Source: a bacterium (GTDB lineage: Bacteria > Patescibacteriota > Minisyncoccia > Phycocordibacterales > UBA6065). Taken from it: a stretch of 52,067 bases of DNA. A program made the translations under genes and the position numbers. The notes under the pieces are model-generated. The model made no database searches. It saw only the letters and a list, made by a program, of their open reading frames with translations, and was not told where the DNA came from. Below are positions 10,036 to 40,232 of this stretch, piece by piece; the first letter of the stretch is position 1, and each line of letters opens with the position of its first letter. The stretch spans positions 302,933 through 354,999 of the forward strand of contig JAUXUT010000149.1 in NCBI GenBank assembly GCA_030680695.1, given 5' to 3'.

Positions 10036-10710
10036 CTACCCTAAGTCTAATAATGCCGCACGTTCAAGAACGAGCTTAACCGACGGAGCACGGTCTTTGA
10101 GATATGCCGACAGACCCACGATTTCTTTCACAGCATGGGCTCGCACCGGTCCGGCTTTTTCGAGGCTATCGCCGCGCAGTTCTGTAATAAGCGAGGCGAG
10201 GAAACCTTCGGCTTTGGCTTTGTCCTTCTCTTCTATAATGCCAGCCACTGCCGCAAGACGATCCTTTGGCGACATCTTTACGAAAGCTTTCGCGTCTATG
10301 CTGAGCGCCGCGTCACCCGTCAATCCCGCCGATTCATGCGCAATGATGACCATGCGAGATCGCAGAGTTGGCAAAAGGATGCGCCGCGTCGGGGCGATGA
10401 CAAAAAAATGCGTGCCAGTGGTCGGCTCTTCAAAAACTTTTAGAAGCGAATTCTGCGCCTCGTTGGTAATCGCACCCGTAGAAACTATGAATACCTTGCG
10501 ATCGCCCATGACCGGACGCATGGATTGCATGTCTTGCAGGGCGCGTCCTTCGTCAATGCCGAATGACTCGTATATCGCATAATGCACGTCCGGATGTCCG
10601 GCACGCACAATACCAAGTCCTTCTGACAAGAATGCATCAAGCGAAGCGAGCACGGCTTCCCGCTCGCCTTCGATGAAATATGCGTGATGGAGGGCCTTCG
10701 GATCAAACAT
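10036..10710 (-). CDS. holB: DNA polymerase III delta-prime-like subunit (probable start MFDPKALHHAY at 10710)
   Basis: HHAY, AQNSLLKVFEEP, ILLPTLRSR clamp-loader motifs; extended -10 TGcTATACT 6 nt before the ATG. Confidence 0.85.
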   Translation of the reverse strand: MFDPKALHHAYFIEGEREAVLASLDAFLSEGLGIVRAGHPDVHYAIYESFGIDEGRALQDMQSMRPVMGDRKVFIVSTGAITNEAQNSLLKVFEEPTTGTHFFVIAPTRRILLPTLRSRMVIIAHESAGLTGDAALSIDAKAFVKMSPKDRLAAVAGIIEEKDKAKAEGFLASLITELRGDSLEKAGPVRAHAVKEIVGLSAYLKDRAPSVKLVLERAALLDLG

Positions 10711-10725
10711 GTGTTGAGTATAGCA

Positions 10726-10938
10726 AAATAAAAGGCCACATCTGGAAGATGCAGCCTCAGGAGCTACGGTGCGCCATTTTGTTGGATGTCGGCTTGCGCC
10801 AACACGGGCGACATATGTAAATCGTTGCTGGATCCCGAATCTGAGCGATCGATCCCCGAGAAAACCCGTTTCGCCGACAAGGTGTCGAACGCTGAAGAAC
10901 TCCCGTATTGAGATTACTCTGCGTTCACATCTTGTCAA
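10726..10938 (-). ncRNA. Candidate structured ncRNA (RNA2, ~150 nt) with own promoter and terminator
   Basis: TTGACA(10938-33)-16 nt-TAATCT(10916-11); ends pair (CGGGAGUU 10905-898 / AGCUCCUG 10765-58); GCAA-capped hairpin; terminator 10735-10755 plus T tract. Confidence 0.6.
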
Positions 10939-10977
10939 ACACCCTCCTTATCATTTATCCAAGCTCGTCATTTCCAT

Positions 10978-11234
10978 AAAAAAGGCGCGATCCGTAGATC
11001 GCGCCATTCGGCACCCCTTGCGGGGCACCTAACACCTCGAGTAACGTCCCTGGACGTAGCTACTCGATTTTTTCCGAATCTGTATTACCGCAAGCGCCGC
11101 GCCTGGCTTGACGTCTAAGCGTAGCAGGGAGGGTGTACCAGACTGAGGTTGAGCTGCCCGAAGGCTAGCGACTAACCGGGGACAAAGACCGAAGTGCTGG
11201 TATTGGATATTACTCAGTGCCCAATATTTGTCAA
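10978..11234 (-). ncRNA. Candidate 6S-like RNA (RNA1, ~170-nt rod) with promoter, GNRA hairpin and terminator
   Basis: TTGACA(11234-29)-16 nt-TAATAT(11212-07); ~26-bp interrupted closing stem, central bubble, inner stem; terminator GGCGCGATC-TACG-GATCGCGCC-T6. Confidence 0.6.
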
Positions 11235-12248
11235 CTACCTCTTGGACATGATCGTCTTCTTGTAGACGTCGAGATGATCAAGGGCGATGCCGGTTCCCTT
11301 GGCAACGCAGTAAAGAGGATCTTCGGCGAGAATTGCCTTTACACCCGTGCGGCGGAATACAAGTTCTGGAAGATTGCGGAGCATGGATGATCCGCCGGTC
11401 ATAATGATACCGTGGTCGATGATGTCTGATGCAAGTTCAGGCGGAGTTTCCTGAAGTACGTCTTTGATGGCCTTAATCATGTCACGCAATTCCTTGCCGA
11501 TAGCCTTCACAACTTCGTTGGTCTTGATTTCGGTCGAGCGTGGCAGACCAGACAAAAAGTCGCGGCCTTTAATAATCATGACAAGCTCTTCTTCGAGGGG
11601 CACAGCCGAACCAATCTGTATTTTTATATCTTCTGCAGTCTTGTCACCAATGGCGAGATTAAAAGTTTTCTTGATGTAATCAGCGATCGCCGCATCAATG
11701 CGATTGCCCGCGCATTTTACGGATGTTGATGCGACAATGCCTCCAAGAGAAATCACAGCGACGTCGGTCGTTCCTCCACCGATGTCAACGACCATGTGTC
11801 CTTGCGCCTCTTGAATCGGAATTCCTGCGCCGATGGCGGCGAGAATCGGCTCCTTCACGACATATGCGGACTTGGCACCTGCCTTCACAGCCGCCTCGAC
11901 AACGGCGCGACGTTCAGTCGATGTGATGCCTGCAGGAACAGACACGAGGACTTCAGGCTTCCAGATGTTCCACTTGCCCAAGGCCTTGTCTATGAAATAT
12001 CTGAGCATCGCTTCGGTCACGCGGTAATCCGCGATAACGCCGTCCTTCATCGGTCGATACGCAATAATCGATTCCGGCGTACGGCCGATCATCTGTTTTG
12101 CCTCGACGCCTACGGCGAGAACCCTGTTGTCCTGTTCGGATACGGCTACAACCGACGGCTCGTTTAAGATAATCCCCTTGCCAGGAATAAACACGAGCGT
12201 ATTAGCCGTGCCGAGGTCTATACCGAGTTTTTTCGCGAATAAGGCCAT
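11235..12248 (-). CDS. mreB: Second MreB-family actin homolog (stand-alone)
   Basis: LGIDLGTANT, RPMKDGVIADY, MVVDIGGGTTD, GIIMTGGSS. Confidence 0.95.
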   Translation of the reverse strand: MALFAKKLGIDLGTANTLVFIPGKGIILNEPSVVAVSEQDNRVLAVGVEAKQMIGRTPESIIAYRPMKDGVIADYRVTEAMLRYFIDKALGKWNIWKPEVLVSVPAGITSTERRAVVEAAVKAGAKSAYVVKEPILAAIGAGIPIQEAQGHMVVDIGGGTTDVAVISLGGIVASTSVKCAGNRIDAAIADYIKKTFNLAIGDKTAEDIKIQIGSAVPLEEELVMIIKGRDFLSGLPRSTEIKTNEVVKAIGKELRDMIKAIKDVLQETPPELASDIIDHGIIMTGGSSMLRNLPELVFRRTGVKAILAEDPLYCVAKGTGIALDHLDVYKKTIMSKR

Positions 12249-12732: not shown

Positions 12733-12776
12733 GCTCGCTGGGATTTGTCACCGTCCGCCTCGCCCCACCACTCAAG

Positions 12777-12807
12777 ACCGCCTTCCCTTACGGGTTGGCG
12801 GTTTTTT
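12777..12807 (+). terminator. Intrinsic terminator
   Basis: ACCGCC..CCC-TTAC-GGG..GGCGGT stem followed by a T run. Confidence 0.75.
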
Positions 12808-12834
12808 CATAGCGTATATGCTATACTTCCCGAC

Positions 12835-14391
12835 ATGAAAACGCCCACCAAAGCCTTGACCTCTATCGGCTCGATGATTACCCATCTGCGTGAAGACAGG
12901 CGCATGACCCAAGGCGAGCTTGGCAAGAAAATAGGCACGACCCAGTCTGCTATCGCCCGTATCGAAAAGGGCGAGCAGAACCTCTCGACCGAAACTCTGG
13001 CGAAAATTAGCGCGGCCCTCGGTCAGGAAATCGTTTCCCTCGCCCGCGGTGGCACGGTCAATTTCCGCATCAAGGGCGGCCATCCTCTTTCTGGCACGAT
13101 CAAAGTCCGCACTTCCAAAAACGGCGCTGTGGGCGTGATGTGCGCCTCGCTCATGAACAAGGGAACGACTGTCATCAAGAACGCACCAAAAATCGAAGAG
13201 GTGAATCGCATCATCGAAGTCTTCGAATCAATCGGCGTGAAAGTCGAGTGGCGCGGAGACCGCGGACAGGACCTCGCCATTACCCCACCGGCAACCTTTG
13301 CAATGAAATCTATTGCATATGATTCGGCGGCCAAAACAAGGAGCGTGGTAATGATGCTCGGCTCGCTCATACATCGCATGACAAAGTTTGATCTGCCTCA
13401 GGCGTCCGGTTGCCGTCTCGGCTCGCGCACAATCCAGCCGTATGTGTTCGCTCTCGAAAAGCTTGGTGTTTCTATCAAAACCTCATCGAAATATTACGAG
13501 GTATCGCACAAAGGCCTGAAGAAAAATCGAGAAATCATCATGTACGAGGCCGGTGATACTGTGACCGAAGCCGTGCTCATGGCGGCGGCACTTATCCCGG
13601 GCACAACTACGATCAAATTCGCCTCGGCCAATTACCAGGTCCAAGATGTCTGTTTTTATCTCGAACTTCTCGGTGCAAAAATTGATGGCATTGGTACCTC
13701 GACCATGGTAGTCCACGGCATCGACCCAAAAACACTTGGCAAGGACGGTTTGAAAAAAGATGTCGAGTATTCCCTTTCCGAAGACCCGATCGAGGCCATG
13801 TCTCTTATCACGGCAGCAATCATCACCAAGTCATCTATCACGATCGAGCGATGCCCGATTGATTTCCTTGAATTGGAATTGCTCAAGCTCGAAAAGATGG
13901 GATTCAAATATAAATTCCTCAAACGATACAAGGCCGACAACGGCAGAACGAACCTTGTGGACATCAAGACATTTTCGTCAAAGCTCAAAGCCCTCGACGA
14001 GAAAATCCACGCCCAACCATATCCTGGCATCAACATGGACAACTTGCCGTTCTTTGCGGTCATTGCAACTCAGGCCGAAGGACAGACATTTATTCACGAC
14101 TGGGTGTACGAGGAACGCGCTATTTATTATAAAGAACTCGACAAGCTGCGCGCGGAAACAATTCTCGCTGATCCGCATCGCTTTTATGTGAAGGGTCCGA
14201 CCAAGCTCAAAGCGACCGAGGTCGTCTGCCCTCCTGCCTTGCGTCCGTCTGTCATTATCATGCTTGGTATGCTCGCGGCCGAAGGCACATCCGTATTGCG
14301 CAACGTGTACAACATCAATCGCGGATACGAAGACCTCGCCAATCGTCTCAATTCCATCGGCGCAAAAATCGAAACCTTCCGCGATCTTTAA
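12835..14391 (+). CDS. murA: UDP-N-acetylglucosamine 1-carboxyvinyltransferase with N-terminal XRE-type HTH domain
   Basis: LREDRRMTQGELGKKIGTTQSAIARIEKGEQNLS (HTH_3), then SKN, GCRLGSR (catalytic Cys loop), PYPG and E-LANRLNSIGAKI; start set at MKTPT using the -10 7 nt upstream. Confidence 0.93.
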   Translation: MKTPTKALTSIGSMITHLREDRRMTQGELGKKIGTTQSAIARIEKGEQNLSTETLAKISAALGQEIVSLARGGTVNFRIKGGHPLSGTIKVRTSKNGAVGVMCASLMNKGTTVIKNAPKIEEVNRIIEVFESIGVKVEWRGDRGQDLAITPPATFAMKSIAYDSAAKTRSVVMMLGSLIHRMTKFDLPQASGCRLGSRTIQPYVFALEKLGVSIKTSSKYYEVSHKGLKKNREIIMYEAGDTVTEAVLMAAALIPGTTTIKFASANYQVQDVCFYLELLGAKIDGIGTSTMVVHGIDPKTLGKDGLKKDVEYSLSEDPIEAMSLITAAIITKSSITIERCPIDFLELELLKLEKMGFKYKFLKRYKADNGRTNLVDIKTFSSKLKALDEKIHAQPYPGINMDNLPFFAVIATQAEGQTFIHDWVYEERAIYYKELDKLRAETILADPHRFYVKGPTKLKATEVVCPPALRPSVIIMLGMLAAEGTSVLRNVYNINRGYEDLANRLNSIGAKIETFRDL

Positions 14392-39928: not shown

Positions 39929-40144
39929 TTATCGGGCGGCCTTTGCCTTCTTGGCCTTTTTCGCGGCCCTCTTCTCGACGTCGATAACGACGATGCCTTT
40001 GTACATACCCGTAAGCGCGCTTGCGCGGTGGCGGAGATGTATTGTGCCCGTCTTGCTGTCGGTCGAGAGCGCAGGGTTTTTAAGCGCGTGATGAGAGCGC
40101 CTGTTTCCCGTATGAGCCCGCGTGTGTCGCATTCGTACTACCAT
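39929..40144 (-). CDS. rpmF: 50S ribosomal protein L32 (Cys-free form)
   Basis: MVVRMRHTRAHTGNRRSHHAL...HLRHR...GMYKG; -10 TATAGT 7 nt upstream. Confidence 0.9.
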   Translation of the reverse strand: MVVRMRHTRAHTGNRRSHHALKNPALSTDSKTGTIHLRHRASALTGMYKGIVVIDVEKRAAKKAKKAKAAR

Positions 40145-40232
40145 GGCGGACACTATAGCAGATTCGGCACAAAAGGCAAGAAATGATGTTGCGAGAAGGC
40201 GGATCACTATGAACTTTTTCTAAGGGTGGCAC

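What the first reader, a model, noticed from the sequence alone, without database searches (positions are those of the whole stretch)
10726..10938. Unassigned ~150-nt structured RNA with own promoter and terminator (RNA2)
Seen: TTGACA-16-TAATCT, paired ends, alternative internal helices (UGUCGGC/GCCGACA versus a GCAA-capped hairpin), and a terminator. The holB -10 lies just downstream, so it is probably a stand-alone RNA. The apex UCAG-N11-AGCAAC matches the spacing of SRP RNA helix 8, but the apical GNRA stem does not pair. It shares CAGAUUCGG with RNA1. Inference: a divergent SRP RNA, a second 6S-like RNA, or a new class.
Basis: partly seen in the sequence, partly recalled or inferred. Interest (0 to 1): 0.7.

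Follow-up and report, generated by a model that had tools for sequence, protein, structure and literature searches.

The report
Orphan small-RNA-like unit before holB
Between the mreB and holB genes of an uncultured groundwater Paceibacterota (CPR) bacterium lies a roughly 180-base stretch with a good promoter and terminator that probably makes a small RNA, but it is not SRP or 6S RNA, shows no sign of a selected fold, and is missing from every relative examined, so it is an ordinary lineage-specific candidate.

Summary
These are TTGACA-16-TAATCT (10938-10911), an intrinsic terminator (10758-10732 plus U tract), the holB -10 just downstream, the 9-mer shared with RNA1, and UCAG-N11-AGCAAC.

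The promoter signal exceeds chance. That pattern occurs 4 times in the window against 0.75 expected, and two of the four head RNA1 and RNA2.

The "structured RNA" claim does not hold:
- The RNA body folds no better than shuffled sequence (z -0.47).
- The SRP-like spacing motif occurs at chance frequency.
- Rfam gives no SRP or 6S match even at E<=10 on 231 nt.

No homologue was found. The nearest relatives (HolB 77-79%, MreB 94-96% identical) have either a 19-50 nt mreB-holB gap or an unrelated insert. A covariance model of RNA2 finds only itself. Probe 18-22-mers hit only by chance, and the source metagenome holds one copy. No reading frame looks coding.

Best reading: a young, lineage-specific, stand-alone sRNA-type transcription unit inserted upstream of the ancestral mreB terminator, function unknown. 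No RNA data exist. The whole-genome tools (genome search, the fetch from genomes) were closed, so I could not check whether a canonical SRP RNA lies elsewhere in the genome.

The parts
10933..10938 (-). -35 hexamer TTGACA of the RNA2 unit
   Evidence: pattern match at 10911-10938. It is one of only 4 such promoter patterns in the window (0.75 expected).
10911..10916 (-). -10 hexamer TAATCT, 16 nt after the -35. It is preceded by GAG, as in the RNA1 promoter (GAGTAATAT) and in L004 (GAGTAATAT).
   Evidence: It matches TATAAT at only 3 of 6 positions but keeps T1, A2 and T6.
10904..10906 (-). Predicted transcription start (a purine 5-7 nt after the -10)
   Evidence: Inference from the promoter geometry. 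No RNA data exist.
10759..10906 (-). RNA2 body, about 148 nt. Closing stem GGGAGUU/AGCUCCU, small hairpin GACACCUUGUC, a weakly paired central arm carrying UCAGAUUCGGGAUCCAGCAAC, and the GCAA hairpin.
   Evidence: MFE -45.8 kcal/mol, z -0.47 against shuffles, so not distinguishable from random sequence.
10786..10805 (-). 8-bp hairpin GUGUUGGC-GCAA-GCCGACAU, the only well-formed internal helix
   Evidence: The 20-mer probe found only three unrelated chance matches in genome contigs.
10824..10844 (-). UCAG-N11-AGCAAC 'SRP-like' apex, including the 9-mer CAGAUUCGG (10843-10835) shared with RNA1
   Evidence: The motif is at chance frequency, the apex is unpaired in the fold, and there is no Rfam SRP hit.
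10725..10758 (-). Intrinsic terminator: 12-pair stem, UCC loop, UUUUAUUUU tail. It sits where relatives have the terminator hairpin in front of the holB -10.
   Evidence: The hairpin contributes about -18 kcal/mol (minus). Positional conservation is seen.
10708..10725 (-). holB promoter and start: TGCTATACT (10725-10717), 6-nt spacer, ATG (10710-10708). This predicts a leaderless holB mRNA.
   Evidence: The same TGnTATACT-N6-8-ATG arrangement is found in about 20 related loci.
10976..11234 (-). Neighbouring RNA1 unit (TTGACA-16-TAATAT, about 225 nt, own terminator at 11005-10984). It starts directly after the mreB stop codon.
   Evidence: (fold z -3.07). It is not similar to RNA2 (z 0.63).

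Best explanation
RNA2 is a lineage-specific, single-copy, stand-alone transcription unit of the bacterial small-RNA type.

Proposed mechanism:
- A sigma-70-type promoter (TTGACA-16-TAATCT) starts transcription at about 10906-10904 on the minus strand.
- The intrinsic terminator at 10758-10725 ends the transcript after about 175-180 nt.
- The unit lies in DNA that this lineage gained between the mreB stop codon and the ancestral terminator hairpin that precedes the leaderless holB promoter.

Shown: the signals, their excess over chance, the absence of the insert in relatives, and the failure of all SRP, 6S and coding tests.

Inferred: that the unit is transcribed. If the RNA does anything, it most likely acts in trans by base pairing through its poorly structured central part, not as a conserved structured housekeeping RNA. 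It is not a leader of holB. The terminator does not compete with any upstream helix, and holB has no Shine-Dalgarno sequence, so it depends on its own leaderless promoter.
For: Promoter pattern: 4 in the window against 0.75 expected, and two of them head RNA1 and RNA2. The other two stand before an mRNA leader and a gene, so this is the genome's working promoter type.

A strong terminator lies about 150 nt downstream on the same strand.

Gene callers placed no gene in the 524-nt gap.

No frame looks coding:
- The holB N-terminal extension scores -0.26 per codon.
- The SD-ATG-TGA frame scores -0.41.
- The minus-strand 38-aa frame scores -0.19.
- The plus-strand 87-aa ORF scores -0.35.
- The plus-strand 41-aa ORF scores +0.18, which 33% of stop-free out-of-frame chunks match.
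- There are no Pfam hits.
- HMMER against 1.84 billion proteins gave only repeat-driven hits upstream of the ORF's Met.

Relatives: the mreB-holB gap is 19-64 nt in six lineages, and other lineages hold unrelated inserts. The holB promoter and start are conserved, so holB is independent of RNA2.

There is a single copy in the source metagenome at >=80% likeness.
Against: There is no expression data. No RNA run holds the stretch.

The -10 matches the consensus at only 3 of 6 positions and fails the stricter scan.

The terminator may simply be the inherited mreB terminator. The 'unit' could then be a fortuitous promoter in inserted DNA.

The fold is not better than random. No target signal was seen among the window's roughly 50 gene starts: the best duplex is -61.6 kcal/mol against a shuffle median of about -62.5. 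No conservation exists to argue for function.
Confidence: 0.5

Rival explanations
1. Non-functional spacer. The 524 nt are leftover inserted or decayed DNA at a junction that often takes up foreign pieces. The TTGACA-16-TAATCT is a fortuitous or relic promoter, the terminator is the inherited mreB terminator, and any transcript is neutral noise.
For: The insert is absent from the closest relatives, and the junction holds unrelated inserts in other lineages, including a mazF gene (L008) and a pilin-like gene (L029). The fold is not better than shuffles. No homologue exists anywhere. The terminator position is ancestral.
Against: Two perfect -35 hexamers with correct spacing and orientation, each followed by a terminator, within one 524-nt gap are unlikely by chance. 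Small CPR genomes rarely keep 0.5 kb of junk. No remnant of a coding frame was detected.
Confidence: 0.3
3. Divergent SRP (4.5S) RNA or a second 6S RNA.
For: UCAG-N11-AGCAAC has the spacing recalled for E. coli 4.5S helix 8 (UCAG-N11-AGCAGC, from memory). The length of about 150-180 nt and the paired ends are compatible with 6S. No SRP or 6S RNA was detected elsewhere in the window.
Against: There is no hit to any SRP or 6S model even at E<=10 on 231 nt. The motif is at chance frequency. No GNRA loop is closed by a stem, and the arm below it is asymmetric and weakly paired. The fold is multibranched, not rod plus bubble. An essential housekeeping RNA would not be missing from this position in relatives 94-96% identical in MreB without any sequence trace.
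Confidence: 0.03
4. A small protein gene or pseudogene. Candidates are the plus-strand 41-aa ORF (10786-10911), the plus-strand 87-aa ORF (10769-11032) with AGGAG 5 nt upstream, the minus-strand SD-ATG-TGA frame that runs open to the terminator, or an N-terminal extension of holB from the TTG at 10938.
For: The open frames exist. AAGGAGG lies just upstream of the TTG at 10938 and the ATG at 10930. The 41-aa ORF has a gene-like codon score of +0.18.
Against: Codon scores of the other frames run from -0.26 to -0.41. The +0.18 is matched by 33% of non-coding stop-free chunks. There are no Pfam or real HMMER homologues, no plus-strand promoter, and no gene call in the gap. More than 100 HolB homologues are 213-226 aa and start at MF(D/S)..LHHA, and L009 leaves only 36 nt upstream.
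Confidence: 0.05

Closest known systems
Species- or genus-restricted intergenic sRNA genes of bacteria (own sigma-70 promoter plus Rho-independent terminator, 50-300 nt, trans-acting base-pairing regulators)
   Same: Intergenic position, own promoter, own intrinsic terminator, about 180 nt, no coding frame, very narrow phylogenetic distribution.
   Different: No expression evidence, no identified seed or target, and no known RNA chaperone context in Paceibacterota. Function is wholly inferred.
Bacterial small SRP RNA (4.5S, Rfam RF00169)
   Same: A UCAG-N11-AGCA(A/G)C string near the middle of the molecule, and paired 5' and 3' ends.
   Different: No covariance-model match, no closed GNRA tetraloop, no symmetric or asymmetric loop pair, a weak helix below the apex, and no conservation in close relatives.
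6S RNA (Rfam RF00013), including two-copy cases such as Bacillus 6S-1/6S-2
   Same: Size range, closing stem, and a position next to a second RNA gene (RNA1) that another reader called 6S-like.
   Different: The predicted fold is a three-branch junction, not a rod with a central bubble. There is no model match, no similarity to RNA1, and no orthologue in relatives.

Membership tests
Bacterial small SRP RNA (RF00169 / RF01854) | Scores against the family covariance model | tested here: not met
   No SRP family appears at E<=10 on 901 nt or on 231 nt. None appears at E<=1 in the whole window.
Bacterial small SRP RNA (RF00169 / RF01854) | Helix 8 apex: a GNRA tetraloop closed by a short stem above the conserved symmetric and asymmetric internal loops (definition from established knowledge of 4.5S RNA) | tested here: not met
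   UUC-GGGA-UCC cannot pair. The MFE leaves the apex open. The spacing string alone occurs at chance frequency.
Bacterial small SRP RNA (RF00169 / RF01854) | Universal, conserved single-copy gene in related genomes | tested here: not met
   No trace at this locus in L009, L010, L021 or L022-25, and R1 finds nothing.
6S RNA (RF00013) | Scores against the family covariance model | tested here: not met
   No 6S hit at E<=10.
6S RNA (RF00013) | Long irregular rod with a large central bubble flanked by a closing stem and a terminal stem | tested here: not met
   The MFE and the centroid are multibranch, with three hairpins inside a 7-bp closing stem. The ensemble is diffuse (MFE frequency 0.006).
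6S RNA (RF00013) | Binds the RNA polymerase holoenzyme and templates pRNA | not testable with these tools
   Needs biochemistry.
Stand-alone bacterial sRNA gene | Own promoter and own Rho-independent terminator in an intergenic region, with no coding frame | tested here: met
Stand-alone bacterial sRNA gene | Discrete transcript detected | not testable with these tools
   No RNA run holds the stretch.
Conserved structured ncRNA (any class) | Homologues with covarying base pairs, or a fold more stable than shuffles | tested here: not met
   No homologues. Fold z -0.47.

The most novel reading that the evidence does not exclude
The mreB-holB junction of Paceibacterota may be a hotspot where unrelated 'promoter - 100-250-nt RNA - terminator' cassettes are repeatedly gained and replaced. 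Examples are the window's RNA1 and RNA2 and the inserts in L010, L031, L005, L003 and L029. RNA2 would then be one member of a fast-turnover pool of lineage-specific small RNAs, possibly mobile or conflict-related, in ultra-small bacteria that otherwise keep intergenic DNA minimal.
Probability: 0.12. Interest if true: 0.55.

Novelty: new member of a known kind. Interest (0 to 1): 0.17.

Why it matters
If RNA2 is transcribed, it would be one of very few candidate regulatory sRNAs in Paceibacterota (CPR), a group with no experimentally defined riboregulators. On present evidence, however, it is an orphan with no conservation, no fold signal and no target, so it teaches little.

The more useful results are negative and contextual:
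- The SRP and 6S readings can be dropped.
- holB in this clade is a conserved leaderless gene behind a fixed terminator-promoter module.
- The site just upstream of that module takes up different inserts in different lineages.

Tried and rejected
1. Rfam at the gathering threshold on the window, at E<=10 on 901 nt and 231 nt, at E<=1 on the whole window, and on 11 relatives' loci. Nothing relevant. The RAGATH-25 hit (14.6 bits against a gathering score of 49, with broken pairs) is noise.
3. Synteny-based homologue hunt through HolB and MreB relatives in genome contigs, metagenome contigs and the protein collection. No RNA2-like sequence was found by BLAST, by local alignment against shuffles, or by the covariance model. 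An apparent L011 resemblance and an L031 z of 2.8 disappeared on testing. The L031 signal came from the shared terminator tail and holB promoter.
4. Exact 18-22-mer probes in genome contigs and viral contigs. Only chance matches, with no flanking similarity.
5. Phage and plasmid BLAST of the whole gap. Chance-level 25-30-nt hits only.
6. Sequencing runs. Only the source groundwater DNA run holds the stretch, and there is no RNA. Read laying at 80% likeness shows one contig, with no variants and no paralogues.
7. Coding rivals. Rejected.
8. Trans-target scan against the window's gene starts. No better than shuffled RNA2. A full-window scan timed out.
9. holB attenuator reading. Rejected because no RNA2 segment competes with the terminator stem and holB has its own conserved leaderless promoter.
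10. MITE or repeat reading. Rejected because the unit is single-copy with no terminal inverted repeats.
11. Literature searches for CPR SRP, 6S or ncRNA work. Nothing applicable.

Full report
WHAT IS THERE

The finding lies on the minus strand, in the 524-nt gap between mreB (11235-12248) and a short HolB/delta-prime gene (10036-10710). frr and rseP follow holB. The organism is an uncultured groundwater Paceibacterota/Parcubacteria bacterium (record titles of the relatives; run metadata). Its contig is 649 kb. A second public assembly carries the identical 5.7 kb.

The gap holds two tandem units.
- RNA1 has TTGACA-16-TAATAT at 11234-11207 and a terminator at 11005-10984.
- RNA2 is the finding. 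It has TTGACA at 10938-10933, a 16-nt spacer, TAATCT at 10916-10911, a body of about 148 nt, and a terminator (stem 10758-10732, then UUUUAUUUU).

Directly after the U tract comes TGCTATACT (10725-10717), then 6 nt, then the holB ATG at 10710.

CHECK OF THE OBSERVATION

The promoter signal exceeds chance. TTGACA-N16-18-TAnnnT occurs four times in 52 kb on both strands, against 0.75 expected, and none of 100 shuffles reaches four. Two of the four are RNA1 and RNA2. The other two sit in front of an mRNA leader and a gene. The -10 is weak, however (3 of 6 positions), and the stricter scan does not list it.

The terminator is strong: 12 pairs, contributing about -18 kcal/mol.

The structure claim fails. 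The RNA body folds at -45.8 kcal/mol against -44.1 +/- 3.7 for dinucleotide shuffles, which gives z -0.47. The MFE makes up 0.6% of the ensemble. With the terminator included z is -1.87, and the opposite strand gives z -0.97. RNA1, by contrast, gives z -3.07.

The other motifs carry no weight either.
- The 'SRP spacing' string UCAG-N11-AGCA occurs twice in the window against 1.37 expected.
- The 9-mer shared with RNA1 occurs four times against 0.61 expected. The other two copies are in the rpmF promoter spacer and inside a 1079-aa gene on the same strand as the gene's own message, so it defines no common target.

KNOWN FAMILIES

Rfam 15 gives nothing for this stretch at the gathering threshold. 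It also gives nothing at E<=10 on 901 nt or on 231 nt. In particular, no SRP and no 6S model appears. The only entries are noise, such as RAGATH-25 at 14.6 bits against a gathering score of 49.

No SRP or 6S match exists anywhere in the window at E<=1.

By hand, UUC-GGGA-UCC cannot form the closed GNRA stem-loop of helix 8. The arm below it is asymmetric and barely paired. The fold is a three-way junction rather than the 6S rod with a central bubble.

CODING RIVALS

The 300-aa ORF from the TTG at 10938 is a chance extension of holB.
- Its extra 76 codons score -0.26 per codon, against +0.24 for holB and +0.31 for real genes.
- More than 100 HolB homologues are 213-226 aa.
- All start at MF(D/S)..LHHA behind the same -10.
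- In L009 only 36 nt separate mreB from holB.

The remaining frames fare no better.
- The AAGGAGG-ATG-TGA frame that stays open up to the terminator scores -0.41 and has an Arg/Cys-rich, Glu-free composition.
- The plus-strand 87-aa ORF scores -0.35.
- The plus-strand 41-aa ORF scores +0.18, but a third of stop-free non-coding chunks do as well. It has no Shine-Dalgarno sequence, no promoter and no Pfam hit.
- In a full HMMER pass over 1.84 billion proteins, the only hits were RCC1-type repeat proteins. They matched residues upstream of the ORF's Met through many repeats, which is an additive artefact.
- Gene callers left the gap empty.

RELATIVES

I collected the mreB-holB neighbourhood from 8 genome loci, 8 metagenome loci and 13 loci fetched from the contigs that encode HolB or MreB homologues.

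The gap lengths are 19, 36, 39, 50, 63 and 64 nt in six lineages. They are 135, 158, 238, 242 and 253 nt in five others, and 524 nt here. Two lineages carry an inserted gene: 543 nt (mazF) and 1154 nt (pilin-like).

The closest relatives show three different states.
- L009 (HolB 78% identical) has no insert.
- L021 (MreB 94%) has no insert.
- L010 (HolB 77%, MreB 96%) has one promoter-RNA-terminator module of unrelated sequence.
- L011 (HolB 79%) is cut 81 nt upstream of holB, and what remains is not similar to RNA2.

RNA2 matches none of the inserts. This holds for BLAST, for local alignment against shuffles and for a covariance model built from RNA2, which finds only itself in 136 kb. RNA1 and RNA2 are also unrelated to each other.

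Exact probes of 18-22 nt hit only unrelated sequences without flank similarity. Three were run against the 185,579-species genome collection and two against the viral collection. Phage and plasmid BLAST was empty.

In the source metagenome a single contig covers the stretch at >=80% likeness, so RNA2 is not a repeat or a MITE.

What is conserved everywhere is the module 'hairpin - U tract - TG(n)TATACT - 6-8 nt - ATG'. The RNA2 terminator therefore occupies the ancestral position of the terminator in front of the leaderless holB promoter. The novelty in this lineage is the DNA inserted upstream of it.

MECHANISM

The best-supported reading is a young, lineage-specific, stand-alone sRNA-type unit. 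Transcription would start about 10906-10904 and end at the inherited terminator, giving about 175-180 nt.

It is unlikely to regulate holB in cis, for three reasons.
- No RNA2 segment competes with the terminator stem.
- holB keeps its own promoter.
- holB has no Shine-Dalgarno sequence that a long read-through leader could use.

If the RNA is functional, trans base pairing is the default expectation. A duplex scan against the window's gene starts was no better than shuffled RNA2, though.

The main rival is that the unit is neutral: inserted DNA with a fortuitous promoter. Expression cannot be judged, because no RNA run holds the stretch.

VERDICT

The signals are real, but the structure is not supported.
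A stand-alone unit is plausible. SRP and 6S are rejected, and a new class is unsupported.
- It is an ordinary orphan sRNA candidate of low interest.
- The mildly interesting side result is the variable-insert site in front of a conserved leaderless holB module.

Noticed in passing
window 10708-10725 (-); also L001-L031 just upstream of holB: holB appears to be a conserved leaderless gene. An extended -10 (TGnTATACT) ends 6-8 nt before the ATG in about 20 Paceibacterota loci, and a terminator hairpin plus U tract always lies immediately upstream. These HolB proteins are short (213-226 aa) and begin only 8 residues before the HHA(Y) motif.
   Followed up: partly
window 40125-40175 (-): rpmF (L32, MVVRMRHTRAHTGNR...) shows the same leaderless layout: TGCTATAGT, 7 nt, ATG. 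One of the four CAGATTCGG/CCGAATCTG copies lies in its promoter spacer.
   Followed up: no
window 10976-11234 (-): RNA1 starts with TTGACA directly after the mreB stop codon, so mreB transcripts must run into it. It folds significantly better than shuffles (z -3.07), ends in a GCAA hairpin plus terminator, and has no Rfam match. In L005, L010 and L029 a -35-like TTGACA/TCGACA/TTGACT also follows the mreB stop closely, but the downstream sequences are unrelated.
   Followed up: partly
window 11035-11076 (+): On the plus strand the RNA1 hairpin CTCGAGTAACGTCC-CTG-GGACGTAGCTACTCGA is followed by TTTTTT, so it would also act as a terminator for plus-strand transcription. An 87-aa plus-strand ORF (10769-11032) with AGGAG 5 nt upstream ends just before it, but that ORF's codon score is non-coding (-0.35).
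   Followed up: partly
window 10939-10947 and 11128-11136: GGAGGGUGU (an SD-like sequence between RNA1 and RNA2) is perfectly complementary to ACACCCUCC inside RNA1, 180 nt away. This would matter only if the RNA1 terminator is read through.
   Followed up: no
L008 941-1485; L029 346-1501 and 2163-2600: Other lineages carry a PemK/MazF toxin gene (L008) or a pilin-like N_methyl/Laminin_G_3 gene (L029) at the same mreB-holB junction. The L008 toxin gene is annotated in NCBI as one 380-aa protein fused to HolB. L029 also has a 437-nt gene-free, hairpin-rich gap between holB and frr.
   Followed up: no
window 10741-10785 (+ frame): The plus-strand translation RCSLRSYGAPFCW resembles the RCC1-type repeat core CALRxDGSPVCW (8 of 12 identical). 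This produced spurious E-values of 1e-5 to 1e-12 through repeat summation. It is most likely chance.
   Followed up: partly
window 12745-14391 (+); L009, L012, L022: The HTH_3-MurA (EPSP_synthase fold) fusion gene divergent from mreB is conserved in the relatives' loci (518-550 aa products with the same Pfam pair).
   Followed up: no
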